Source: Candidatus Wolfebacteria bacterium (lineage in GTDB: Bacteria; Patescibacteriota; Minisyncoccia; UBA6257; UBA9933). From it: DNA of 64,000 nucleotides. Below are positions 536-61,427 of this stretch, one piece after another. The stretch spans positions 168,959 through 232,958 of the forward strand of contig JANLIR010000002.1 in NCBI GenBank assembly GCA_024654025.1, written 5' to 3'. Position numbers and translations under genes: made by a program. Numbering within the stretch: the stretch's first letter is position 1; each line of letters begins with the position of its first letter. Below the pieces are notes generated by a model, which did not search any database, was not told the origin of the DNA, and saw nothing but the letters and a program-made list of their open reading frames with translations.

Positions 536-3064
536 ATGAAAAAAAATAAATTACCGGAAAACAATCAAAGCAGCCCTCGCGTCGGCTCAGGAATCGAAAA
601 GCGAGAAATATCCGATGAACTTCAAGAGTCTTATCTTGATTACGCGATGTCGGTTATTGTTTCGCGCGCCTTGCCGGACGTCAGAGACGGCCTAAAGCCG
701 GTTCAGCGAAGAATTCTTTGGGCAATGTGGGAAAGCGGTCTTAGAGCGAGTGCCAAACATAGGAAATCCGCCTCAGTTATCGGAGACACATTAAAAAGCT
801 ATCATCCGCACGGCGATATTTCCGTGTACGACGCGTTGGTTAGGATGGCTCAGGATTTTTCTCTTCGCTACCCCTTAATTGACGGACAGGGTAATTTCGG
901 CAGCCAGGACGGAGATTCAGCAGCCGCTTATAGGTATACCGAGTGCCGTTTATCCAAAATAGCCGAAGAGCTTCTTGTTGATATAGAAAAGGATACGGTT
1001 AATTGGCTGGATAATTATGACGGCACAACCAAAGAGCCGGCGGTGCTTCCTTCCAAGCTCCCCCACCTTCTTTTGAACGGTTCTTCGGGTATCGCGGTGG
1101 GTATGGCGACCAGTATTCCTCCGCATAATCTTTCTGAAGTTATTGACGCCACTCTTCATTTAATTGATTCGCCCAAAGCCACAATCGAGGACTTGCTGAA
1201 ATTTATTCAAGGCCCTGATTTTCCGACTGGCGGTATTATTTACGATAAAAAATCCATAGCCGAAGCGTATTCTACGGGTCGAGGTTCTATACCGGTCAGG
1301 GCGGTGGCGGAAATCGAAGAAAGAAAAAAGGATAATTTCAATATAATAATCACCGAAATCCCCTATCAAGTTAACAAGTCCGAGCTTTTGATAAAAATGG
1401 CCGGCCTTGTTACCGATAAAAAAATTCAAGGCATAAAAGATCTGCGCGACGAAAGCGATCGCGACGGGTTAAGGATTGTCGTTGAGCTTAAAAACGACGT
1501 GCCCGCGCAAAAAATATTAAACCAGCTTTACAAGCACACCGACCTTCAAAAGAATTTTAATTTAAACACAATCGCGCTGGTCGGCGGGCTTCAGCCCCAG
1601 CTTCTTTCGCTGAAAGAATTTTTAGCCCAGTATATCGAACACAGAAAAGAAGTTGTTCGCCGAAGAGCTGAATTCGAGCTTCGCAAAGCCAAAGAGCGGG
1701 CGCATATTTTAGAGGGTCTTGCGAAAGCGCTTTCGGTTATCGATAAAGTCATCGAGACGATTAAAAAATCAAAAGACAAAGAAGAGGCGCGCAAAAATTT
1801 AGTTTCCCGTTTCAAGCTTACCGAAATTCAAGCCGAAGCGATTTTAGAAATGAAGCTCTCGACTTTGGCGGCGCTTGAAAGGCAGAAAATAGAAGACGAG
1901 CTCAAAGAAAAAAGAAAATTAATAAACGAACTGGAAATTCTTTTGAACAGCTCGCAGAAAATTTTAAAAGTCATAAAAGACGAACTTTCAGAAATCAAAA
2001 AAAATTACGGCGACGAAAGGCGCACTAAAATTGTCGCCGGCGGCCTCACGGAATTTAAAGAAGAAGATTTGATTACCGAAGAAGAAGTCGTTATCACTCT
2101 TTCTCAAAACGGATACATAAAAAGAGGAAGCCCCGATGTTTTTAGAAGCCAGCAAAGAGGAGGAAAGGGACTTATCGCTTCCGAAGTCGGCGAAGAAGAC
2201 GCATTGACGCATTTTATCGCGGCCAACAGCCACGACAATATTTTGTTTTTCACCGAACGCGGCCGGGTTTTCCAGACAAAAGTTTATGAAATCCCCTCAG
2301 CTTCCAGGCAAGCTAAAGGCAAAGTTATACAAAACTTTTTAGAAATTCCACCTGACGAAAAAGTCAGCGCCGTAGTCGCTTACGCGCCGACTAAAAATCA
2401 ACAACCGCCAACCCATAATTATTTAGTAATGGCCACTAAAAACGGAGTCATCAAAAAAACTCCGCTTCTGGAATTCGCCAATATCAGACGCACTGGAATT
2501 ATCGGCATCAATTTGCAAAAAGGAGATGTGCTTAATTGGGTTATGTCGTCTTCGGGTAAAGACGAAGTTTTAATAGTAACCGCCTTGGGACAGTCAATAA
2601 GATTTAAAGAAAGCCAATTGCGGTCTATGTCCCGAATTGCCACAGGCGTTAAGGCTATCAAGCTCAAAAAAGCCGCGCCCCGTAGCGAACAGGGTTCTGC
2701 TACTGGGGATGATTTTGTCGTTGGACTTGATATAATAAGCACAGAGTCGAAAGAAAAAATTTCTAAGCTAAAAGTTTTAATTGTTACGGAAAACGGTTTT
2801 TCTAAACAAACTTCGCTTGGCCAATACAAAGTTCAGAAGCGAAGCGGTAAGGGAATTAAAACCGCTAAGATTACTTCCAAAACCGGAAGAATTGTCAGCG
2901 CGCAAGTAATTTTCGAAGCGACAGAACTTTTGGCGATTTCTTCCAAAGGGCAGATTATTAAAACGCCTTTAAAAAAAATCAGAACCGCCGGTCGCGCCAC
3001 CTCCGGAGTAAAAATTATGACACTTAAAGGAGGCGACAAATTGGTAGGAGCGGTTACGCTGTAA
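536..3064 (+). CDS. gyrA: DNA gyrase subunit A
   Basis: N-terminal [30 protein letters not shown] and HPHGD motifs, active-site AAAYRYTE, C-terminal beta-pinwheel repeats. Confidence 0.97.
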
Positions 3065-3074
3065 AAATTAACTT

Positions 3075-4358
3075 ATGTATAATAATCGCCTAAAAATAGT
3101 TTTGTTCGGAGCCGGAGTTATTGCACTTATTTTAGTTGTTCTAAGTGTTTTTTGCGTAATTCCGATAACAAAAAATTGTTCAAAAACTTCCGTGTCCGGA
3201 AAATTAATTTTTTGGGGAGTTGACGATGTTTCCGCTTATCAAACCGTTATAGATAATTACAGCAAGTTTTATAATAGAAAAGTTCAAATTCAATACCAGC
3301 AAATCCCCGAAGCGGATTTTGAAAATACTTTTGTTCGGGCAGTGGCTAAAAATCAAGGGCCCGATATTTTAATGTTTCATAACTCCTGGCTTATAAAACA
3401 GGGCGATCTTTTAGCTCCGGCCACTGACGCGCAAATTTCTTTAGCAAATATTCGCCAGCTTTTCCCGCAGGTTGTTGAAAAAGATTTTACTTACCAAAGT
3501 AAGGTTTACGCGCTTCCTTTATATCTCGACACTCTCGCGCTTTTTTACAATAAAGATATTTTTAATGCTAACGCCGTTGTTTTTCCGCCGGCAAATTGGA
3601 GTGATTTTACGAATTTAGCAACGAGGCTTACGAAAAAACAAGCTAACGGCCAGATTTTACAATCCGGCGCGGCTATCGGCAGCTCTGATAAAAATATCGT
3701 AAACGCAACTGATGTTTTAAATACGTTAATGCTTCAATACGGTTCTTTAATAGTTGATCCATCTTTTATGCGAACTGATTTTAGCGGTAAAGCAACCAGC
3801 GCTTTTGATTTTTACACCGGCTTTGCCAAGCCAGCTAGCAGTAATTATGTTTGGAACCAAAATTTAGGAAACTCGTTTGATTTATTCAGCCAGGGGCAGG
3901 CGGCGATGATTTTCGGTTATGCTAACCAGATTTCATATCTCAAACAAAAAAATCCGCTTTTGAATTTCGAGGTGGCGTCTATGCCGCAGGCCGATCCTTC
4001 AAATCCTAAAAATTACGCCGCTTATTGGGGCTTGGCAGTTTCTTCTAAAAGCGCGAATTCCGAACTTGCCTGGAGTTTTATAAAATACCTGACAACTGAC
4101 CCGCAAAACTCTCTTACTTATCTTCAAGCGACAAAACGGCCGCCGGCTTTGAAAATTTTAATCAAACAATATCAGAATGATCCGGATTTAAATGTTTTTG
4201 CAAACCAAGCGCTTGCGGCAACTTCATGGTATCAGCCCGACTCTGACCAAACCAGCCAGATTTTTTCAAGCGCGGTCGAATCGGTTTTAAGCGGCCAGCT
4301 TACTTCTGGGCGCGCGCTGGAAAAAGCCGCTTCTCAAATAAATAATTTATTTAAATAA
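3075..4358 (+). CDS. extracellular solute-binding protein (ABC family 1-like), N-terminal membrane anchor
   Basis: N-terminal TM helix, then LIFWGV...GPDILMFHNSW...ALPLYLDTLALFYNKD, typical of sugar-type SBPs. No permease gene nearby. Confidence 0.6.
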   Translation: MYNNRLKIVLFGAGVIALILVVLSVFCVIPITKNCSKTSVSGKLIFWGVDDVSAYQTVIDNYSKFYNRKVQIQYQQIPEADFENTFVRAVAKNQGPDILMFHNSWLIKQGDLLAPATDAQISLANIRQLFPQVVEKDFTYQSKVYALPLYLDTLALFYNKDIFNANAVVFPPANWSDFTNLATRLTKKQANGQILQSGAAIGSSDKNIVNATDVLNTLMLQYGSLIVDPSFMRTDFSGKATSAFDFYTGFAKPASSNYVWNQNLGNSFDLFSQGQAAMIFGYANQISYLKQKNPLLNFEVASMPQADPSNPKNYAAYWGLAVSSKSANSELAWSFIKYLTTDPQNSLTYLQATKRPPALKILIKQYQNDPDLNVFANQALAATSWYQPDSDQTSQIFSSAVESVLSGQLTSGRALEKAASQINNLFK

Positions 4359-4363
4359 AATTT

Positions 4364-4702
4364 ATGAATATCGCATACGCTGCTCTAACTCCTTTAGTCC
4401 AATGCGGTCCCGGAACAGCCAAGCTCGAGTGCACTATTTGTGATCTATTTCAATTGGCTCAAAATATTTATAATTTTGTTATTGTTTTTGCGTTTGTTTT
4501 GGCTTTAGGAGCTTTGGTTTGGGCGGGGTTTAAAATAATGACTTCTGCCGGCGATCCGGGAAAATATAAAGACGCGGTTGGAAAAATCAGGACGATTTTA
4601 ATCGGCATAGCCATTCTGCTTTTAGCCGGGTTTGTGGTTGATTTAGTTTTGAAAGTCCTTGTCGGCGGCAGCTTGGGTCCGTGGAATAAATTGCCTTGCT
4701 AA
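4364..4702 (+). CDS. TrbC/VirB2-like (T4SS-pilin-like) small membrane protein, paralog 1
   Basis: Cys-rich N-terminus (QCGPG..LECTICD). Two TM helices flank the motif WAGFKIMTSAGDPGKYK. Confidence 0.55.
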   Translation: MNIAYAALTPLVQCGPGTAKLECTICDLFQLAQNIYNFVIVFAFVLALGALVWAGFKIMTSAGDPGKYKDAVGKIRTILIGIAILLLAGFVVDLVLKVLVGGSLGPWNKLPC

Positions 4703-4732
4703 AAAACCAAAAAAAATTTATTATAAATATTA

Positions 4733-5152
4733 ATGAAATCGCTTTTGTTTAAAATTTCTATAGTATCAGCGATAATTTTCGCGGTTTTTACCACGAGTAT
4801 TTTTGTAGAAAAAGTTTTGGCAGTGTCCGGTGGAGGGGTTAATACAGCGGCGCCGGGCGGCGGAGTTGATTCTGTTGGCGGCGGTAACGGACAGCTTTTT
4901 AATTATTTCGGATCCGGTTCGACTCTTGACAGTGTCCTTTCCAAAATAATCGATTATTTTATCGGTGTTTCGGTTTCAGTGGCTGTGATAATAGTTATCT
5001 ATGGAGCGTGGAAAATGATGACCGCGACAGGCGATCCTAAAAAATTCCAAGAAGGCCAAAAAACAGTTTTGTACGCCGCTATCGGGTTGTTGGTAATTTT
5101 ACTCGCAAGAGGGATTATCGGCGCGTTGTATGGGATAATACAAACGTTATAA
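4733..5152 (+). CDS. TrbC/VirB2-like (T4SS-pilin-like) small membrane protein, paralog 2
   Basis: Signal/TM helix, Gly-rich linker, motif YGAWKMMTATGDPKKFQ between two TM helices. Confidence 0.55.
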   Translation: MKSLLFKISIVSAIIFAVFTTSIFVEKVLAVSGGGVNTAAPGGGVDSVGGGNGQLFNYFGSGSTLDSVLSKIIDYFIGVSVSVAVIIVIYGAWKMMTATGDPKKFQEGQKTVLYAAIGLLVILLARGIIGALYGIIQTL

Positions 5153-5192
5153 TAAATATAAAGAAAAAGGTCGAGAATGAGAAATCAAAAAA

Positions 5193-5558
5193 ATGAAAAA
5201 AGTTTTACAAAAAATTATTTATTCAGGAGCGATTTTATCGCTCGTATTGCCGGTATTTTCGTTTGCCGCGATATTTACTCCGCCAGGCCAGGGGCAACCT
5301 GGAAATATTCCTATAACCGGCCTCTCTAATGTGTATGACACGCTAGATACGGTAGCTAATTATTTGTTGGGATTATTAATTGCTTTGGCGGTTGTTTTCA
5401 TTGTTTGGGGAGCGTTTCAGTTTTTAACTTCCGGTGGAGATGAAGCAAAAACAAAAGCGGCAAGAAATCATATTCTCTGGGCTCTTGTAGCTGTCGCGGT
5501 TGGGTTACTTGCTAAAGGGCTAGTTGCCGCGATAAGAGGAATCGCCGGAAACTTATAA
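5193..5558 (+). CDS. TrbC/VirB2-like (T4SS-pilin-like) small membrane protein, paralog 3
   Basis: Signal/TM helix, motif WGAFQFLTSGGDEAKTK between two TM helices. Confidence 0.55.
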   Translation: MKKVLQKIIYSGAILSLVLPVFSFAAIFTPPGQGQPGNIPITGLSNVYDTLDTVANYLLGLLIALAVVFIVWGAFQFLTSGGDEAKTKAARNHILWALVAVAVGLLAKGLVAAIRGIAGNL

Positions 5559-5580
5559 ATTTATTTTCAATGATTCAAAA

Positions 5581-5608
5581 AATATCCCGAGTGTCGGGAT
5601 ATTTTTTT
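5581..5608 (+). terminator. rho-independent terminator after the pilin-like genes
   Basis: AATATCCCGA gtg TCGGGATATT followed by a T-run. Confidence 0.7.
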
Positions 5609-5728: not shown

Positions 5729-6679
5729 TCAATAAATCTTCAGGAGACCCGGTTGTCCCATGGCCACTTTTATTGGGCCGAGCGGGTTTCCGTTAGTTTT
5801 CCATTTCCAAAAGCCAACCGGTCCCGCTTTCCGTGTTTCGCCGGAGCCCTCGCCAATTATGATCTGGTAAGAGTTTTGGGCGTCAATCGTTATGATTGTC
5901 CCAATGGGCGGGGTCCATGAAGTCACCGCAACGCTCCCGGCCGGAATAAAAACACCATTTCGTCCTTCTTCCGGCGTGACCACGATTTCTTTGAGAACCG
6001 GCGCACTGGGCGCAACCCCCGCTTCCGCGTTAGATGGTTTCATGGTGAGAGTCGTCACGATGCCATTGTCGATTCCCTTTGCTGAGTTCCTTGCGAGCTC
6101 GGCTGTGCGGGGAAGAAACAATGAAATGACGATTGTTATGAAAATCATCGATGCGACAAACGTTATTGCCCTTCCGTTGAAGATGGAAGTGCCTCCGAAA
6201 AGCCGAGTTCCGATAAAGATGATAAAGGCCAAGAGCAGCAGCAACGGGATCAGCTCGGGTCGTTTATCTATCGGAATGATGATAAGCATCAGGGCGAATG
6301 ATAACTCGGCGAATAATACGTGCAGCGTCAGTCGAACATACCGCTCTCCAAACCCCACTGCTGTTCTTCGCCAGATCGCGTCGATTATTAACGCAATCGG
6401 CGCGGCCAGTAAAGAAAGCAAGATCGTGAAGAACGCCCAAACAAGTCCCGCAACCGAAATCCACATCGAGAATCCGAAAATTCCCAGAAGCAGGATTGGT
6501 ATGGGCAGAAGCATCATTACGATTGCGAGCCGCGAAAGCCCGACCCGATATACTTCAAAATCGGTTCTGTTATCGCCCCCAACAAGGGCAATGACCTCGG
6601 CGGCGTCCGCCGCGCCGGTGATGATTGTGTCGAGAATGAGCCGCAGCGTTAAGAGTATTTCACGAAGTGTTTCACGCAT
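5729..6679 (-). CDS. hypothetical polytopic membrane protein with soluble C-terminal domain (GC-rich cassette)
   Basis: Start moved to ATG at 6679, preceded by GGAGGctcctcATG. It overlaps the upstream stop by 8 nt. Several TM helices. Confidence 0.6.
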   Translation of the reverse strand: MRETLREILLTLRLILDTIITGAADAAEVIALVGGDNRTDFEVYRVGLSRLAIVMMLLPIPILLLGIFGFSMWISVAGLVWAFFTILLSLLAAPIALIIDAIWRRTAVGFGERYVRLTLHVLFAELSFALMLIIIPIDKRPELIPLLLLLAFIIFIGTRLFGGTSIFNGRAITFVASMIFITIVISLFLPRTAELARNSAKGIDNGIVTTLTMKPSNAEAGVAPSAPVLKEIVVTPEEGRNGVFIPAGSVAVTSWTPPIGTIITIDAQNSYQIIIGEGSGETRKAGPVGFWKWKTNGNPLGPIKVAMGQPGLLKIY

Positions 6680-7373
6680 GAGGAGCCTCCTTTCGATATT
6701 TGGCAGTCTTCCGGCCGCGTGCTGTGCGGCGGTTATTGAGCCATTCAGCCCAACGGTCGTTGAGGGGTTGAAGTTCTGAACCAATTACTCCAAATACTTC
6801 GTTGAGACGGATCCCAAACATTCTTAGCCACTGCATGACGATGTCGTGGTTGAGAAACTCGATTGCGCTGTCGAATTCTTGCGGAGGAAGTTCGCCGAGC
6901 CAGACGAAGAAGTTGATGGTATCTTCATCGGTCGTTTCCTTCCCTTCCTCGGATTCTTTAAGTATTAAAACCTTTCCGAGACAATCCACAAGAAGATTCT
7001 CTTCGCCAGGCCGGTAATTTCCTTCGTCAGAATAAAGCCGGGGCCGACAAAACTGCCGATCTTCCTGCCTCTTTCTGATGGTTTTTGCCGCGACTTTCTT
7101 CTTTTCATCTTCGGAAGATTCCATCTTCTGTAAAAAAACGAGAAGCTTGGCGCGGTAATGGTCACTCATCTTCGCCTGCACTTTTTTAGCCGTTTCTACG
7201 GCTGCCTTGCTCCCGACTTCGCGAATGACCTCGGCGGCAGCGGTTCTTGACCCCATCTTCATAAGCCCCCAGGCTTTTCTGAGGAGTTCAAAAACAGCAA
7301 TACCCCCTGCCGTTATCCCGAGTTCCTTTCCGACTTCGCCAGCGCTGAAATCAGCTTTCTTTTCCTCTGCCAT
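6672..7373 (-). CDS. hypothetical protein (GC-rich cassette, first gene)
   Basis: ORF preceded by aaAGGAGGacgccgaccATG. No family recognised. Confidence 0.55.
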   Translation of the reverse strand: MAEEKKADFSAGEVGKELGITAGGIAVFELLRKAWGLMKMGSRTAAAEVIREVGSKAAVETAKKVQAKMSDHYRAKLLVFLQKMESSEDEKKKVAAKTIRKRQEDRQFCRPRLYSDEGNYRPGEENLLVDCLGKVLILKESEEGKETTDEDTINFFVWLGELPPQEFDSAIEFLNHDIVMQWLRMFGIRLNEVFGVIGSELQPLNDRWAEWLNNRRTARGRKTAKYRKEAPHA

Positions 7374-7564: not shown

Positions 7565-7649
7565 GTCCTCGTGGCGGAAATGGAATACGCGCAGCGCTTA
7601 GGACGCTGTCCCGCAAGGGTTGTGGGTTCGACTCCCACCGAGGACACCA
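7565..7649 (+). tRNA. tRNA-Leu(UAG), CCA encoded
   Basis: Acceptor GTCCTCG/CGAGGAC. Anticodon arm CAGCG CTTAGGA CGCTG. Long variable arm (CCC gcaa GGG). T arm GTGGG TTCGACT CCCAC. Ends ACCA. Confidence 0.9.
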
Positions 7650-7831: not shown

Positions 7832-8800
7832 TTATCCCCTTCTTCTTCCGTGAAATGTTTTGTGTATTTCTTTGAGTTCTTTATTTGTTAAATGCGTGTA
7901 AATTTGGGTTGTGGAAATATTGCTATGGCCTAAAAGTTCTTGCACAGACCTTAAATCCGCTCCTCCGATTAATAAATCAGTGGCAAAGCTATGCCGGAGC
8001 AAATGCGGGTGGATTTTTTGCGGTATCCCCGCTTTTCGGCCGTAAAAATCTATCAAGCGCTGAATTGCGCGAGGAATAATTCTCCCGATAACTTTCGGAT
8101 TTGCTTGCCCTGAGCTCATCGAGTCTGAGACTCTCAGAGTCGAATGACTTGTCGAACGGGTTGCTTTAGTTAAGCTTACAAACAGCGCTTCTTCGGCATC
8201 GGTTCGTTTTCCTAAATAATTTTTTATAGCTTTCTTGGCGGATTCGGATAAAAACACCACTCTTATTTTCCCGCCCTTGCCCCGCACGGAAATTTCTCCC
8301 CTATTCAAATCAAAATACCGGCTCAAAGAACATAATTCTGAAACGCGAAGCCCGGTTGAAAACAAAACTTCCAAAATCGCTTTGTCGCGAAGTCCTTTTA
8401 AATCGTTTGTTTTGGGCGCTGCCATAAGCCGTTCCAAATCCGAGTATTCCATTATATTGATTTGCCGGTTTGGAATTCTAGGAAGCTCGATTTTTTCCGA
8501 AGCTAAAACCCTGTAGTCGTTTTTCGCCAAAAATTTCAAAAAGTTTCTAAGCGCTATTATGTAGTAGCTTTGGGTTGTGCGTTTAAAGTTTTCTCCATCT
8601 CTGGGATTATGAAGCCGCGCCAGATAGATCCGAAAATCTCTTACGTTGTCAGCGGTGATATCGCCCTCGGATTTTATTTTGGCGAAATCAAAAAACTTCG
8701 TTAAATAGTGCTCATAATTTTCCCGCGTGTCTTTAGTCCTGCCTTTTTCAATCTCAAGATAATCAAGATAGTTTTTGAGGAGTTTGTTTATGTCAGCCAT
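7832..8800 (-). CDS. tyrosine recombinase (XerC/XerD-like integrase)
   Basis: Catalytic-domain motifs LFSTGLRVSEL, HPHLLRHSFATDLL, LLGHSNISTTQIYTH. Start placed at MADINK (8800). Carries a roughly 25-aa internal insertion. Confidence 0.85.
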   Translation of the reverse strand: MADINKLLKNYLDYLEIEKGRTKDTRENYEHYLTKFFDFAKIKSEGDITADNVRDFRIYLARLHNPRDGENFKRTTQSYYIIALRNFLKFLAKNDYRVLASEKIELPRIPNRQINIMEYSDLERLMAAPKTNDLKGLRDKAILEVLFSTGLRVSELCSLSRYFDLNRGEISVRGKGGKIRVVFLSESAKKAIKNYLGKRTDAEEALFVSLTKATRSTSHSTLRVSDSMSSGQANPKVIGRIIPRAIQRLIDFYGRKAGIPQKIHPHLLRHSFATDLLIGGADLRSVQELLGHSNISTTQIYTHLTNKELKEIHKTFHGRRRG

Positions 8801-8806
8801 AGCTTC

Positions 8807-8841
8807 GCAACCTGTAACTTGTAACAATTAACTTATAACAA
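8807..8841. repeat. 5 x 7-nt degenerate heptad array
   Basis: GCAACCT GTAACTT GTAACAA TTAACTT ATAACAA. Confidence 0.65.
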
Positions 8842-56002: not shown

Positions 56003-57661
56003 TTATTTAAACACTCTTTCTGTTTTGACATACCAGTCTTTGATATTTTCTAATCGGCTGCTTGGTAAGGGGAGTATTTTTTCTTCAAATCCGTTTAAGG
56101 ATTTGCTTTGGATATAAATGTAAGGAGGTGAGAAAAGGAAAATAACCGGCTGGTCATTTTTTATCAGCGACTGCGCTTGCAGCATTTTTTCTCTCCGAGC
56201 GTCGGCGTTAAAGTCGGCTCTTATGGAATTAATCAGAAAATCGACGTCTTTATTTTCATAAAGCGACAAATTAAGGCCGGGATGGAATTTTTGGCTTGAA
56301 TGCCAAAAAGAAAATAAATCAGGATTTTTGCCGTAGATGTTTCCGAATAAAATCATTTCGTAGTCTCTTGGCTTTATAATATCGGGGAAAATTTCGTCAC
56401 TCGGCTTTATATCAAGATTTATTTTCACCCCAATTTTTTGCCAATCCTCCTGAATTATTTTCGCGGAGTCGGTTAAAAAGGGGATTTCTGGGGTAGTCAG
56501 CGAAAATTCAAGACGGGCGTTTTTCTCGCTGTTTTGCCTTATGCCGTCGGATGAAACTTGCCATCCACTTGCCTCCAATAAGTTTTTTGCTCTATCGGGC
56601 GAAAACTCGTTTTGTTGTTTGAAAAAATTTTCGCTGTAACCGCTAATTCCCGGCACGAGCGGTCCGATTAAAGGAATAGCCATTCCTTTAAAAACATCTT
56701 TTATGATTCTCTCCCGGTCAGTCGCTAAATCGAGGGCTTTGCGCACGTTTATGTCGCTCAAAATAGGATTAACGCTTTGGTTGAAAAAAATTCCGTAATA
56801 ACGGGGCATGTTTATAGCCTCAATTTTATGGGGAATAGTTATCTTGTCCAAATTGTTGTAGGAAACGGCTCCGAGGCCGCTGATTAAACCGCCGTTAAAA
56901 GCGTTAAGCGCGTCTTTTTCGCTGGTATAAAATTTAAAAGTGAATTTATTTAAATACGGTTTTTGGTTGAAATAAGTTTCATTTCTCACGAGTTCATAAT
57001 CAGTGATAAATCCATCCCGCCGTTTTTTTAAATCGGAAAATTTAAAAGGGCCGCTGCCCACAGGAGCGATTAAATTGTAATCGGAGAGGCGGATATTGGA
57101 AAACGGGATGTCGCCAAAAATGTGTTTGGGTATTGGCCGGAGATTTATTAATGTGTTTTCAAAAAAGACATAAGGCGCGCTTAAAATTAATTTTATTTCT
57201 CTGGAACTGACCCTTTCTGTTTTTACTCCCTGCCAGTCGGGAAATAATGAGGAATTGGCGTCCTGGTCCTGAATGGCTTTGATTGTAAAAATAATGTCGT
57301 CGGAGGTTATGGGACTGCCATCTTGCCAATTAATATCGCCTTTTATTCTTAATTTCCAAACCTTGCCGTTGTTCTCAATGCCTATATCGCCATCTTTTAA
57401 ATCGTTGATACTCGCGAAGGTTAGCTCAATAATATCCGAATCAACCTCGTTTGCGGCAATAACCGGATTTATAAAAACCGGCTGGCCGACCTTGCCTTCG
57501 GTGTATCCGCCGCCCGCCACCGGTCGAAGAACCGTGGCGGCTCTTACGAAATTAGCGCTTAAATAAATTCCCGCGATTACAAAAAGCGCCAATGAGCTAA
57601 AAAAGGCCATGCGTTCTTTTTTTGAAAAAGCGTTTAAGATTTGGCGGATTTTAAAATTCAA
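56003..57661 (-). CDS. ABC transporter substrate-binding protein, family 5 (peptide/nickel type)
   Basis: N-terminal anchor. Overall SBP_bac_5 pattern (WQDGSPITSDDIIFT, GSGPFKF..., PVIFLFSP). Confidence 0.8.
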   Translation of the reverse strand: MNFKIRQILNAFSKKERMAFFSSLALFVIAGIYLSANFVRAATVLRPVAGGGYTEGKVGQPVFINPVIAANEVDSDIIELTFASINDLKDGDIGIENNGKVWKLRIKGDINWQDGSPITSDDIIFTIKAIQDQDANSSLFPDWQGVKTERVSSREIKLILSAPYVFFENTLINLRPIPKHIFGDIPFSNIRLSDYNLIAPVGSGPFKFSDLKKRRDGFITDYELVRNETYFNQKPYLNKFTFKFYTSEKDALNAFNGGLISGLGAVSYNNLDKITIPHKIEAINMPRYYGIFFNQSVNPILSDINVRKALDLATDRERIIKDVFKGMAIPLIGPLVPGISGYSENFFKQQNEFSPDRAKNLLEASGWQVSSDGIRQNSEKNARLEFSLTTPEIPFLTDSAKIIQEDWQKIGVKINLDIKPSDEIFPDIIKPRDYEMILFGNIYGKNPDLFSFWHSSQKFHPGLNLSLYENKDVDFLINSIRADFNADARREKMLQAQSLIKNDQPVIFLFSPPYIYIQSKSLNGFEEKILPLPSSRLENIKDWYVKTERVFK

Positions 57662-59312: not shown

Positions 59313-61427
59313 ATGGCTAATAAAAAAAATAAGAAGAATAAAAAAAACGCAAAATCTTTATCAAACGAGGAGTCGGAAAACGGAGAAAAACAATTTAGGC
59401 TTCACCCGGATACTAAAAAAAGCGTGTTTGCCATAGGTTTTTTGGCATTAGCGCTTATTTTAATTTTAGCGAGATTCGGAAACGCCGGCCCGGTCGGCGA
59501 TTACGCGTATAATTTTTTTAACTGGCTTTTTGGCGTGGGTTATTTTCTTCTGCCGCTCATTTTTATAATAATGGCAGTTGTTTTTTTGACTTCAGAAAGG
59601 AGAAGAATTTTCGGAGTTACTTTTGTTGGCGCTATTGTTTTTGTTTTGTCGAGTTTGGGGCTGATAGATATTTTTTATTCCGATAAAGCCGGAATTTTTG
59701 GCTGGGTAGTCGGCTCTATTGAGTCGTTGTTTGGCCGGGTTGCTTCGATAATTGTTGTTATCGCGATGATAGTCGCGTCATTTTTAATAACTTTGAATTT
59801 GCCTATAAAGATAAGAAGAAAGCCCAAAGAGTCTATTTTAGAATCAGAAGTTAGCTGGCAAGAGGAAAACGGGGAAACTAAACGGCCAGATGAAAAAAGA
59901 GAAGAAGATATTCAAGGGGAAGAAACAGAAGAAATAGAACCGAAAGTGGAAGTAAAAGAAAGGTTTACTTTGCCTTTTTCTAGGCCTGCCAAAATCCAAA
60001 CCAGCCGGGCGCCCGCTAATTACGTTTTCCCGCCCCTGGATTTATTAAAGTCTTCTGTTGAAAAACCAACCCCCGGCGATCTTCGCGCTAACGCAAATAT
60101 TATTAAAAGAACTTTGGACAGCTTTGGCATTCCGGTGGAAATGGGGGAAATAAATGTCGGCCCCAAGGTAACGCGTTACACGTTAAAGCCTGCCGAAGGC
60201 GTGAAGCTTGCCCGGATAACCGCTTTGTCTTCCGATTTGTCTATGGCTTTAGCCGCGCATCCTATAAGAATAGAAGCGCCGATCCCTGGAAAATCATTGG
60301 TTGGCATTGAGGTTCCCAATAAAGCCGCTTCAATTGTCCGATTGGGGAGTTTGATGGCGTATCCGGAGTTTTCCGCAGCCGGGTCTCTGGGTTTCGCGCT
60401 CGGCCGAGACGTCACTGGCGAGCCGATTTTTGCCAGCCTAGAAAAAATGCCTCATATGCTTGTTGCCGGTTCAACCGGAAGCGGCAAAAGCGTTTCCATT
60501 CACTCGCTTTTAATATCCCTTTTATACAAAAATTCTCCTGATAATCTAAAAATGATTTTAATCGACCCCAAACGTGTTGAACTCACGGCTTATTCGGGAA
60601 TTCCGCATTTGATAGCTCCCGTGGTGACCGAATCTAAAAAATCTTTAGGTGTTTTCAAATGGGCGCTCAGAGAAATGGATGGCCGCTATGAAATACTGGA
60701 AAGCGCCGGTTCGCGCGATATTAAAAGTTATAATAAAAAAAATCCAGATAGCCCTCTGCCTTTCATTATTATAGTAATTGACGAGTTAGCCGATTTAATG
60801 AGCACATACGGACGGGAAGTTGAAGGCTCTGTTGTCCGGTTGGCGCAAATGGCGAGAGCCACGGGTATTCATTTAATTCTAGCTACCCAGAGGCCGTCAG
60901 TAGAAGTTATTACCGGACTCATAAAAGCTAATATTACGACTCGAGTCGCTTTGCAAGTTGCCAGCCAAATAGATTCCAGGACGATTTTGGACAGTTCCGG
61001 CGCTGAAAAGCTTTTAGGCGGCGGCGACATGCTTTATATTACCAGCGATCTTTCCAAGCCAAGAAGAATTCAAGGCGCCTATGTTTCCGAGGAAGAAATA
61101 AATAAAGTTACTCAGTTTATAAGAGAAAACAACGGCGATTATGTTTATGAAAACGCGCCTACTTTTGAGAATGGTTTGCCGTCAGGCGCGATGACGGCTG
61201 ATAGTTTATTTGATGGATTTGAAAACGACAACGACGATGAATTGCTTGAGGAAGCGATAGCCGTTGTAACGGAGGCTCAAAAAGCGTCAGCGTCCTTACT
61301 TCAAAGACGTTTGAAAGTAGGTTATGCTAGAGCTGCCCGGCTTTTGGATATAATGGAAGCTAAAGGCATTATCGGCCCGGGCGATGGAGCAAAACCTCGG
61401 GAAGTTTATGTAAAAAGAGAAATTTAA
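59313..61427 (+). CDS. ftsK: DNA translocase FtsK
   Basis: N-terminal TM helices, Walker A GSTGSGKS, IVIDELADLM, C-terminal gamma domain (LLQRRLKVGYARAARLLD). Confidence 0.93.
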   Translation: MANKKNKKNKKNAKSLSNEESENGEKQFRLHPDTKKSVFAIGFLALALILILARFGNAGPVGDYAYNFFNWLFGVGYFLLPLIFIIMAVVFLTSERRRIFGVTFVGAIVFVLSSLGLIDIFYSDKAGIFGWVVGSIESLFGRVASIIVVIAMIVASFLITLNLPIKIRRKPKESILESEVSWQEENGETKRPDEKREEDIQGEETEEIEPKVEVKERFTLPFSRPAKIQTSRAPANYVFPPLDLLKSSVEKPTPGDLRANANIIKRTLDSFGIPVEMGEINVGPKVTRYTLKPAEGVKLARITALSSDLSMALAAHPIRIEAPIPGKSLVGIEVPNKAASIVRLGSLMAYPEFSAAGSLGFALGRDVTGEPIFASLEKMPHMLVAGSTGSGKSVSIHSLLISLLYKNSPDNLKMILIDPKRVELTAYSGIPHLIAPVVTESKKSLGVFKWALREMDGRYEILESAGSRDIKSYNKKNPDSPLPFIIIVIDELADLMSTYGREVEGSVVRLAQMARATGIHLILATQRPSVEVITGLIKANITTRVALQVASQIDSRTILDSSGAEKLLGGGDMLYITSDLSKPRRIQGAYVSEEEINKVTQFIRENNGDYVYENAPTFENGLPSGAMTADSLFDGFENDNDDELLEEAIAVVTEAQKASASLLQRRLKVGYARAARLLDIMEAKGIIGPGDGAKPREVYVKREI

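What the first reader, a model, noticed from the sequence alone, without database searches (positions are those of the whole stretch)
4364..5558. Three tandem, divergent TrbC/VirB2-like pilin paralogs with no secretion machinery in view
All three share the same architecture: a signal/TM helix, a variable region, then W.(A/G)(F/W)..(M/L)T(S/A).GD(P/E).K between two TM helices. This is the pattern of conjugative/T4SS pilins and of the pilin-like family common in CPR genomes.

Paralog 1 has a 4-Cys N-terminal region and paralog 2 a Gly-rich spacer. They follow a membrane-anchored solute-binding protein. No VirB4/VirB6/VirD4 gene lies within 64 kb. This raises the question of what assembles them, or whether they are surface filaments or adhesins for an episymbiotic lifestyle.
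Basis: partly seen in the sequence, partly recalled or inferred. Interest (0 to 1): 0.5.

Follow-up and report, generated by a model that had tools for sequence, protein, structure and literature searches.

The report
Tandem VirB2-like pilin genes, Wolfebacteria
Three adjacent small genes in a groundwater Wolfebacteria (CPR) genome belong to the "T4SS pilin" family; tandem arrays of such divergent pilins, often far from the secretion ATPase genes, are already described in these ultrasmall bacteria, so this is an ordinary new example.

Summary
The three ORFs exist at 4364-4702, 4733-5152 and 5193-5558 (+ strand). All three pass Pfam's curated cut-off for PF18895 T4SS_pilin. They share only 21-31% identity and are under purifying selection (dN/dS 0.06-0.23). 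Pfam scans and searches with Patescibacteria VirB4, TrsD-like, PrgI and VirB6-like seeds find no T4SS machinery in the 64 kb.

Two details need correcting. Paralog 1 has no signal helix, only a 6-aa leader. Its cysteines are three N-terminal plus one at the C-terminal residue, a pattern conserved across its subfamily.

The window comes from a Candidatus Wolfebacteria MAG (NUV83_00885-00895), in which NCBI already names paralog 3 "pilin".

The phenomenon is published. Quiñonero-Coronel et al. 2025 report 441 arrays of 2-11 VirB2-like pilin genes in Patescibacteria, averaging 25% identity, with a pilin near virB4 in only 1135 of 1948 assemblies. Wang et al. 2023 showed such an array is essential in a Saccharibacterium.

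The best reading is that these are membrane-hairpin pilin subunits used by a T4SS encoded elsewhere in the genome. That was not verifiable here.

Three smaller observations are new: the array's position downstream of gyrA recurs in relatives, paralog 1 is leaderless with a 3+1 Cys pattern, and fused multi-module family members exist. Verdict: new member of a known kind, low interest.

The parts
4364..4702 (+). p1, 112 aa. PF18895 pilin of the Cys subfamily (ALTPLVQCG..C..C N-region, GPWNKLPC C-terminus). It is leaderless: a 6-aa MNIAYA precedes the conserved mature N-terminus. NCBI MCR4275299.1, annotated 'hypothetical'.
   Evidence: Pfam PF18895 37.2 bits against cut-off 26.6; TrbC 24.0 against 27.9. 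Two TM helices, 38-56 and 78-96, and no N-terminal helix. dN/dS 0.06-0.12. Subfamily pattern and 3+1 Cys co-occurrence.
4733..5152 (+). p2, 139 aa. PF18895 pilin with a signal peptide (about residues 1-30, ...KVLA|VS), a Gly-rich variable N-region, and a TM hairpin. NCBI MCR4275300.1, annotated 'hypothetical'.
   Evidence: Pfam PF18895 38.8 bits; TrbC 21.9, sub-threshold. NCBIfam NF045849 35.6 bits against 40. Hydropathy and charge. dN/dS 0.16-0.23.
5193..5558 (+). p3, 121 aa. PF18895 pilin with a signal peptide (residues 1-25, ...SFA|A), a Pro/Gly-rich N-region, and a TM hairpin. NCBI MCR4275301.1, already annotated 'pilin'.
   Evidence: Pfam PF18895 43.3 bits. AF2 model: helix 3-18, then hairpin H44-78 and H84-119 with pLDDT about 85. 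dN/dS 0.12. NCBI name.
5577..5607 (+). Intrinsic-terminator-like hairpin plus T-run that closes the pilin transcription unit.
   Evidence: 14-bp stem, 3-nt loop and T-tail; sequence read directly.
3075..4358 (+). Context, not a pilin: a TM-anchored SBP_bac_1 solute-binding protein immediately upstream (5-nt gap), probably co-transcribed. The linkage holds only in close relatives.
   Evidence: Pfam SBP_bac_1 E = 1.8e-30. Synteny in L003-L006. Replaced by a methyltransferase, with or without a pilin-domain fusion, in L007 and L012.
536..3064 (+). Context: gyrA, the conserved upstream anchor of the array in this and two more distant lineages.
   Evidence: Translation. gyrA followed by a pilin array in L003-L006, L007/L008 and L012/L013.

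Best explanation
The three genes are a tandem array of sequence-divergent VirB2-like pilins (Pfam PF18895) of the Patescibacteria type IV secretion system, in a Candidatus Wolfebacteria genome.

Shown:
- Family membership.
- The architecture of a two-helix membrane hairpin with a basic 'TSAGDPxK' loop.
- Cleavable-type signal peptides on p2 and p3.
- Purifying selection on all three.
- Co-orientation behind gyrA and an SBP gene, with one terminator after p3.

Inferred mechanism: the proteins are inserted by Sec/YidC, with the N-region and C-terminus outside and the basic loop in the cytoplasm. p1 lacks a signal peptide and would insert through its first TM helix, exporting a short acidic N-tail. 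A VirB4-type ATPase complex (VirB4, TrsD, PrgI/VirB3, and possibly VirB6), encoded elsewhere in the genome, then extracts the subunits from the membrane and polymerises them into a surface filament or conduit that contacts the host cell.

The variable N-regions (Cys-stapled in p1, Gly-rich in p2, Pro/Gly-rich in p3) would be the exposed surface. The paralogs probably co-assemble or alternate, giving structural or host-range diversity.
For: - PF18895 is above the gathering cut-off for all three, and the TrbC/VirB2 sub-threshold hits cover the same hairpin.
- The Mycoplasma-ICE pilin-like family NF045849 is hit at E = 5.5e-9 to 6e-7.
- Hydropathy, charge and the AF2 model agree with VirB2 membrane topology.
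- The conserved loop residues T79, G82, D83, P84 and K86 are present in 75-92 of 95 homologues.
- dN/dS is 0.06-0.23, similar to gyrA at 0.07 and the SBP at 0.12-0.15.
- The same family sits beside VirB4, a TraC-like protein, PrgI and TrbL_3 in a Saccharibacterium (L014), and near PrgI in L010.
- Published survey: arrays of 2-11 pilins with about 25% identity, often away from virB4 (PMC12102498).
- The pilin array is essential in S. epibionticum (PMC12857230).
- The two Wolfebacteria genomes visible in that survey's Table S1 are VirB4-positive.
- Family members with a large N-terminal extracellular domain fused to the hairpin (L007 447-aa protein) fit an exposed N-terminus.
Against: - No T4SS component lies within the window or within 10 kb upstream in syntenic relatives.
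- I could not show that this MAG encodes VirB4 at all.
- No pilus built of PF18895 proteins has been observed in any organism; the reviews say only 'potential to elaborate conjugative pili' and that the T4SS role is 'completely unknown'.
- Similarity to solved VirB2 is not significant by sequence profile (8cue, E = 1.9) or by fold.
- p1 lacks the signal peptide that canonical pilins have.
- Covalently fused proteins of 4-7 modules exist in the family, which is awkward for a classical helical pilus.
Confidence: 0.6

Rival explanations
1. The PF18895 hairpins are not filament subunits. They form a membrane-embedded hetero-oligomer (a ring, channel lining or platform), either as the inner-membrane part of the Patescibacteria T4SS or as a separate envelope structure. 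The tandem genes would encode neighbouring protomers.
For: - Family members with 4-7 hairpin modules fused behind a single signal peptide (P0141, P0142, P0148) show that modules sit side by side in one membrane-inserted chain.
- The best structural superpositions of the hairpin include ATP-synthase subunit c (1a91, TM-score normalised to target length 0.74, rmsd 2.2 Å), though these matches are not significant.
- Solitary, conserved Cys-subfamily copies sit next to rpmG in housekeeping neighbourhoods far from any T4SS gene.
- No pilus has been demonstrated.
Against: - There is remote but consistent sequence similarity to TrbC/VirB2 and to the Mycoplasma ICE pilin-like family.
- The N-regions are variable while the hairpins are conserved, which is typical of exposed filament surfaces.
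- Fusions to large N-terminal extracellular domains exist.
- A two-helix hairpin matches many folds non-specifically.
Confidence: 0.2
2. They are T4SS-independent surface or adhesion proteins. Together with the adjacent membrane-anchored solute-binding protein, they would form a host-contact or nutrient-capture module assembled without VirB4.
For: - The SBP is tightly coupled to p1 (5-nt gap) and the SBP-pilin order is conserved in close relatives.
- No T4SS genes lie within -10 to +58 kb.
- The SBP is an orphan, with no ABC permease or ATPase gene nearby.
Against: - The SBP linkage disappears in slightly more distant relatives, where a methyltransferase or a pilin-fusion gene occupies that position while the gyrA-pilin arrangement persists. 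The SBP adjacency therefore looks incidental.
- No self-assembly route is known for VirB2-like hairpins.
- Most Patescibacteria with these pilins also carry VirB4.
Confidence: 0.12
3. The array is a decaying remnant of a lost T4SS and is no longer functional.
For: - p1 has lost its signal peptide, whereas relatives such as P0045 keep one before the same ALTPLVQCGPGT sequence.
- p2 and p3 are broken or partly deleted in the L003/L004 lineage.
Against: - All three are intact here and in L005/L006, with dN/dS 0.06-0.23. p1, the leaderless one, is the most constrained.
- The L003/L004 lesions may be metagenome assembly artefacts in strain-variable sequence.
Confidence: 0.03

Closest known systems
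VirB2-like pilin arrays of Patescibacteria (Wang et al. 2023, Cell, S. epibionticum ML1; Quiñonero-Coronel et al. 2025, Microb Genom, PMC12102498)
   Same: - Same Pfam family (PF18895).
- Same organisation: 2-11 tandem genes.
- Same low within-array identity: 21-31% here, against a published mean of 25% and maximum of 54%.
- Same phylum.
- Location away from virB4 is common in the survey.
   Different: - This array is in Paceibacteria (Wolfebacteria), whereas arrays were reported as most abundant in Microgenomatia and Saccharimonadia.
- It sits directly downstream of gyrA and an SBP gene. The main text of that paper contains no mention of gyrA.
- Its first member lacks a signal peptide.
- Essentiality has been shown only for the Saccharibacterial array.
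Canonical conjugative pilins VirB2 / TrbC / TraA (Pfam PF04956; T-pilus, RP4 and F pili)
   Same: - Small protein with two hydrophobic helices and a short basic loop.
- N-terminal leader on p2 and p3.
- Predicted topology with both termini outside and the loop inside.
- Sub-threshold PF04956 hits for p1 and p2 across the hairpin.
   Different: - Below the PF04956 cut-off (24.0 and 21.9 against 27.9), and no hit for p3.
- No significant match to solved VirB2 by sequence or fold.
- Longer variable N-regions.
- No adjacent virB operon.
- The host is a monoderm-like CPR bacterium.
- Pilus formation, lipid binding and cyclisation are untested.
Mbov_0395 / MMCAP2_0565 pilin-like conjugal transfer protein of Mycoplasma ICEs (NCBIfam NF045849)
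   Same: All three paralogs align over nearly the whole 80-residue model, with E = 5.5e-9 to 6e-7. These are better E-values than for TrbC.
   Different: - Below the curated cut-off (29-35.6 bits against 40).
- Those proteins are encoded inside a mobile ICE next to its conjugation genes, not in a chromosomal housekeeping operon.
virB2 paralog arrays of Bartonella and Anaplasma T4SSs
   Same: Tandem amplification and divergence of pilin genes, interpreted as surface variation (cited in PMC12102498).
   Different: - Those are bona fide PF04956 VirB2 genes within or beside a complete virB locus in diderm intracellular pathogens.
- Here the family is PF18895 and no locus is nearby.

Membership tests
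Pfam PF18895 T4SS_pilin | Whole-protein score at or above the curated gathering threshold (26.6 bits), with a match over most of the 71-position model | tested here: met
   p1 37.2 bits (model positions 5-70), p2 38.8 (3-71), p3 43.3 (4-70). PF18895 is also precomputed on nearly all 120 listed homologues.
Pfam PF04956 TrbC/VirB2 pilin | Score at or above the gathering threshold (27.9 bits) | tested here: not met
   p1 24.0 bits (E = 4.6e-5), p2 21.9 bits (E = 2.1e-4), p3 no hit at E <= 1. The relationship is remote homology, not curated membership.
NCBIfam NF045849 Mbov_0395 pilin-like conjugal transfer protein | Score at or above the curated cut-off (40 bits) | tested here: not met
   29.0, 35.6 and 29.7 bits.
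Patescibacteria VirB2-like pilin array (as defined in PMC12102498) | Two or more PF18895/PF04956 genes in tandem, or separated by one non-pilin gene | tested here: met
   Three consecutive genes with 30-nt and 40-nt spacers.
Patescibacteria VirB2-like pilin array (as defined in PMC12102498) | High divergence within the array (published mean 25%, maximum 54% identity) | tested here: met
   21%, 31% and 30% pairwise identity.
Patescibacteria VirB2-like pilin array (as defined in PMC12102498) | Encoded in a Patescibacteria genome | tested here: met
   Exact matches to proteins of a Candidatus Wolfebacteria MAG, NUV83_00880-00900. p3 is also found on Hainich groundwater 0.1-µm-filter contigs.
Patescibacteria VirB2-like pilin array (as defined in PMC12102498) | The same genome encodes the T4SS signature ATPase VirB4 | not testable with these tools
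   Only 64 kb of the 248.7-kb contig is available. The MAG is not in the contig index. The single genome scan returned only Saccharibacteria. Indirect support: the two Wolfebacteria genomes visible in Table S1 are VirB4-positive.
Functional conjugative (VirB2-type) pilin | Cleavable N-terminal signal or leader peptide | tested here: inconclusive
   p2 and p3 have a basic n-region, a hydrophobic h-region and an AXA-like site (VLA|V and SFA|A). p1 has only MNIAYA before the conserved mature sequence. No signal-peptide predictor or experiment was available.
Functional conjugative (VirB2-type) pilin | Two hydrophobic helices joined by a short, positively charged loop | tested here: met
   Hydropathy, loop net charge of +3, +2 and +1, and the AF2 hairpin H44-78/H84-119 for p3.
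Functional conjugative (VirB2-type) pilin | Genetic linkage to VirB4, VirB3, VirB6 and other T4SS genes | tested here: not met
   Nothing in the window by Pfam or by CPR-specific seeds. The adjacent polytopic ORF shows no relation to TrbL_3 or PrgI.
Functional conjugative (VirB2-type) pilin | Polymerises into an extracellular pilus | not testable with these tools
   No multimer prediction or experiment was available, and this has not been shown for any PF18895 protein.
Type IV pilus (T4P) pilin | Class III signal peptide (G|F/M-T-L-I/L-E) processed by a prepilin peptidase | tested here: not met
   The motif is absent from all three, and there are no T4P Pfam hits.

The most novel reading that the evidence does not exclude
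The gyrA-linked, stand-alone PF18895 arrays, and the solitary Cys-type copies next to rpmG, may not be pilus subunits of a T4SS. They may instead be building blocks of a membrane-embedded hetero-oligomeric ring or channel that is a core envelope feature of Paceibacteria, working without VirB4. Three things hint at this: naturally fused proteins of 4-7 modules, the housekeeping gene neighbourhoods, and a p1 whose N- and C-terminal tails are tied by a disulfide instead of being processed like a pilin.
Probability: 0.12. Interest if true: 0.6.

Novelty: new member of a known kind. Interest (0 to 1): 0.2.

Why it matters
The Patescibacteria T4SS and its pilin array are essential for epibiotic growth in the one species tested, yet their function is unknown. 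Each additional well-characterised array, especially from the little-studied Paceibacteria, helps define which features are general. This locus adds four modest points:
- An array position downstream of gyrA that recurs across several lineages.
- A strongly conserved leaderless paralog with a 3+1 cysteine pattern, suggesting that the two exposed tails are disulfide-linked, a possible analogue of the head-to-tail cyclisation of T-pilin and TrbC.
- Better similarity to a Mycoplasma-ICE pilin-like family than to proteobacterial TrbC. This bears on whether the pilin arrived with the monoderm-type (MPF-FATA) system.
- Fused multi-module relatives, which argue that paralogous modules pack side by side.

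None of this changes the basic picture. The finding itself is a correct recognition of something already published.

Tried and rejected
1. Foldseek of the p3 AF2 model against the PDB gave no significant match. The best hits were generic helical hairpins, and the archaeal conjugation pilus 8dfu ranked second at E = 1.1. The fold is too simple to discriminate.
2. Sequence searches against the PDB failed. p3 alone gave no hits. The 95-sequence profile found VirB2 8cue only at E = 1.9, and the top hits were spurious designed repeat proteins.
3. I tested the adjacent convergent polytopic ORF (5729-6679, − strand) as a cryptic VirB6 or PrgI. It has no Pfam hit and no PDB hit beyond a weak cupredoxin-like tail at E = 0.12. 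It has only six close homologues, none with a domain. Its AF2 model has pLDDT 49, which is unusable, so I ran no fold search on it. hhalign against Saccharibacteria TrbL_3 and PrgI gave a probability of about 1%. I rejected it as T4SS machinery on present evidence, though that is not a proof of absence.
4. I tried to reach the rest of the source MAG. Exact-protein look-ups for two of its proteins found nothing in the contig index.
5. I spent the single genome-collection scan on a VirB4 seed that turned out to be Saccharibacterial. It returned 80 Saccharibacteria loci and nothing about Wolfebacteria.
6. I searched the supplementary tables of PMC12102498 for the NUV83 locus-tag prefix and found nothing.
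7. I considered the integrase at 7832-8827 together with tRNA-Leu at 7565-7649 as the boundary of a mobile island carrying the pilins. I rejected this because the integrase is conserved in all relatives and is followed by rpsO and pnp. It looks like a chromosomal Xer-type recombinase.
8. Type IV prepilin, sortase and lipoprotein signals are absent from all three proteins.
Full report
**Observation**

The window has three co-oriented ORFs at the stated coordinates: p1 4364-4702 (112 aa), p2 4733-5152 (139 aa) and p3 5193-5558 (121 aa). They follow a TM-anchored SBP_bac_1 solute-binding protein (3075-4358, Pfam E = 1.8e-30) and gyrA (536-3064).

The spacers are short: 5 nt from the SBP gene to p1, 30 nt from p1 to p2, and 40 nt from p2 to p3. 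A clean terminator-like hairpin at 5577-5607 follows p3. A second one on the opposite strand (5705-5676) closes a convergent gene. No convincing terminator lies between gyrA and p3.

The paralogs share 21-31% identity. A profile built from the three finds no fourth copy in a six-frame search of the window.

**Family assignment**

All three exceed Pfam's curated threshold for PF18895 T4SS_pilin: 37.2, 38.8 and 43.3 bits against 26.6, with E-values of 3e-9 to 4e-11. p1 and p2 also give sub-threshold TrbC/VirB2 (PF04956) hits over the same hairpin.

NCBIfam gives sub-threshold but clear matches to NF045849, the Mycoplasma-ICE "Mbov_0395 pilin-like conjugal transfer protein" family, at E = 5.5e-9 to 6e-7.

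An exhaustive profile search finds 48,711 representative clusters at E <= 1e-3, so this is a very large family. Nearly all of the 120 listed homologues from the word-indexed search carry PF18895.

**Architecture**

Hydropathy, charge and an AF2 model of p3 agree. The model shows a signal helix at residues 3-18 and a hairpin at H44-78 and H84-119, with pLDDT about 85 in the hairpin. The layout is a variable, acidic or neutral N-region, then TM1, then a basic loop carrying T-S/A-x-G-D-P/E-x-K, then TM2. The loop residues T, G, D, P and K are present in 75-92 of 95 homologues. This is the membrane topology known for VirB2-type pilins.

- p1 has no signal helix. It begins MNIAYA-ALTPLVQCG, and an in-frame stop at 4352-4354 prevents any upstream extension.
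- p1's cysteines are C14, C23 and C26 plus C112, the last residue.

p1 belongs to a recognisable subfamily with an (A/G)LVPCG…C..C N-region and a GPWNKxxC C-terminus. Other members, for example P0045 and P0064, have ordinary signal peptides. The whole p1 clade has only 6-17-residue leaders ending in AYA or AQA.

In the sequences collected, 18 of 19 proteins with three N-region Cys have exactly one C-tail Cys, across about ten independent lineages. I infer, but have not shown, that a disulfide ties the two exposed tails together.

**Are they real genes?**

I compared them with orthologues on syntenic contigs L003 and L005. dN/dS is 0.06-0.12 for p1, 0.16-0.23 for p2 and 0.12 for p3. The neighbours give 0.07 for gyrA and 0.12-0.15 for the SBP gene. 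All three pilin genes are therefore maintained by selection, and the leaderless p1 is the most constrained.

In the L003/L004 lineage p2 and/or p3 are broken or partly deleted. That could be real decay or a metagenome assembly artefact.

**Source and annotation**

The proteins are identical to MCR4275298-MCR4275302 (NUV83_00880-00900) of a Candidatus Wolfebacteria MAG, on a 248,723-bp contig. NCBI already names p3 "pilin" and calls p1 and p2 "hypothetical". p3 also occurs on short contigs from Hainich groundwater sampled on 0.1-µm filters.

The rest of the window is ordinary CPR housekeeping: PNPase, FtsH, ClpB, ParAB, ComEC, FtsK, RecA, aminoacyl-tRNA synthetases, tRNAs and tmRNA.

**Machinery**

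No VirB4, VirD4, VirB6, PrgI or TrsD is detectable in the window. This holds for the Pfam scans of the unassigned and large ORFs. It also holds for phmmer and tblastn searches seeded with VirB4, TraC-like, PrgI and TrbL_3 proteins from a Saccharibacterial T4SS cluster (L014), where every hit has E > 0.04. The only FtsK-like ATPase (59313-61427) is the chromosomal FtsK with alpha and gamma domains.

The convergent polytopic ORF next to the array (5729-6679, − strand) was the one candidate for a cryptic VirB6. It has no Pfam or PDB match and only six close homologues. Its AF2 model is unusable at pLDDT 49. hhalign gives about 1% probability against TrbL_3 and PrgI.

In syntenic relatives the 10 kb upstream of gyrA also lack T4SS genes. 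I could not inspect the rest of the MAG.

**Contexts elsewhere**

- The order gyrA, then one variable gene, then a pilin array recurs in three lineages. These are the window and its close relatives L003-L006 (SBP gene then three pilins), L007/L008 (methyltransferase, a 447-aa protein ending in a pilin domain, then two pilins) and L012/L013 (methyltransferase then four pilins). None has a T4SS ATPase within 10 kb.
- Three members of p1's Cys subfamily are solitary genes directly upstream of rpmG.
- L010 has an eight-gene array about 7 kb upstream of a PrgI-domain gene.
- L014 has a full cluster of VirB4, TraC-like, PrgI and TrbL_3 genes beside its pilins.

**Literature**

Quiñonero-Coronel et al. 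2025 (PMC12102498) searched 3,035 Patescibacteria genomes with PF18895 and PF04956. They report VirB2-like pilins in 1,948 VirB4-containing assemblies, with a pilin near virB4 in only 1,135 of them. They also report 441 arrays of 2-11 pilin genes, with mean identity 25% and maximum 54%.

Their Table S1 marks both Wolfebacteria genomes that I could see as VirB4-positive and assigns them to class Paceibacteria.

A 2025 T4SS review (PMC12857230) summarises Wang et al. 2023. In S. epibionticum an array of six sequence-divergent VirB2-like pilins is essential for growth, and the review describes the systems only as having the "potential to elaborate conjugative pili". A 2024 perspective (PMC11665869) states that the T4SS role is "completely unknown".

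The main text of the survey contains no mention of gyrA.

**Mechanism**

The best-supported reading, at about 0.6 confidence, is as follows. The proteins are Sec/YidC-inserted hairpin subunits with their N-regions outside and the basic loop inside. A VirB4-type machine encoded elsewhere extracts and polymerises them into a host-contacting filament or conduit. The divergent N-regions provide surface diversity. Family membership, topology, selection and operon structure are shown. Assembly by VirB4, filament formation and the disulfide staple are inferred.

The main rival, at about 0.2, is a membrane-embedded hetero-oligomer. It is prompted by genuine fused proteins with 4-7 modules behind a single signal peptide, and by the housekeeping contexts. 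A T4SS-independent module working with the SBP (about 0.12) is weakened because the SBP linkage is lineage-specific. A decaying remnant (about 0.03) is contradicted by the dN/dS values.

**Verdict**

The phenomenon, including arrays lying far from virB4, is already published, so this is a new member of a known kind and of low interest. The small additions are the recurrent gyrA linkage, the leaderless 3+1-Cys paralog, the closer similarity to a Mycoplasma-ICE pilin-like family than to TrbC, and the fused multi-module relatives.

Noticed in passing
window 5729-6679 (-), with partner ORF 6672-7373 (-): A lineage-restricted polytopic protein of 316 aa. Its membrane part (residues 1-205, about six helices) is almost invariant among its six homologues. 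Its C-terminal domain of about 110 aa is hypervariable. It has no Pfam or PDB match. It overlaps a 233-aa ORF of unknown function by 8 nt. The region is 47% GC against about 40% for its surroundings.
   Followed up: partly
L003 10853-11726 and L004 10383-11130: In two closely related JGI contigs, p3 (L003) or both p2 and p3 (L004) are truncated or split. In L003 the deletion also removes the 3' end of the convergent polytopic gene. p1 stays intact. This is either real decay at the convergent junction or mis-assembly of strain-variable sequence.
   Followed up: partly
P0141 (606 aa), P0142 (552 aa), P0148 (364 aa); proteins outside the window: These PF18895 family members are covalent concatenations of 4-7 pilin hairpin modules behind a single signal peptide. 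They are not read-through artefacts, because the modules have no internal signal peptides. They dominate the top of the exhaustive profile search.
   Followed up: partly
L007 8574-9917: A 447-aa protein with a large N-terminal domain (weak Ig/fn3-like hits) and a C-terminal PF18895 hairpin. It sits where the window has its SBP gene, between gyrA and the pilin array.
   Followed up: partly
L009 8277-8856; L096 1126-1742; L098 3193-3859: Members of p1's Cys subfamily (LVPCG..C..C … GPWNKxC) occur as single genes immediately upstream of rpmG. The neighbourhood of miaA, parB, relA and topA is conserved, and no T4SS genes are nearby.
   Followed up: partly
L007 11156-11884; L012 10848-11354; L014 10957-11472: An HSP20 small heat-shock gene lies convergent to, and directly after, the pilin array in three unrelated loci. 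In two of them a PrsW protease gene follows. The window has no HSP20 gene at this position.
   Followed up: no
window 4364-5558: The three pilins match the Mycoplasma-ICE pilin-like family NF045849 with better E-values than Pfam TrbC/VirB2. This bears on whether Patescibacteria pilins came with the monoderm MPF-FATA system, a question the 2025 survey left open.
   Followed up: no
window 7565-7649 (+) and 7832-8827 (-): tRNA-Leu(tag) lies next to a tyrosine recombinase (Phage_int_SAM_1 plus Phage_integrase in its orthologues). The pair is conserved in all relatives and is followed by rpsO and pnp, so it looks like a chromosomal Xer-type recombinase and not an island boundary.
   Followed up: partly
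window 3075-4358 and 56003-57661: The SBP_bac_1 protein at 3075-4358 has no ABC permease or ATPase gene nearby. A second ORF at 56003-57661 reads like a family-5 solute-binding protein by eye (not scanned against Pfam), and it too has no transporter partner nearby.
   Followed up: no
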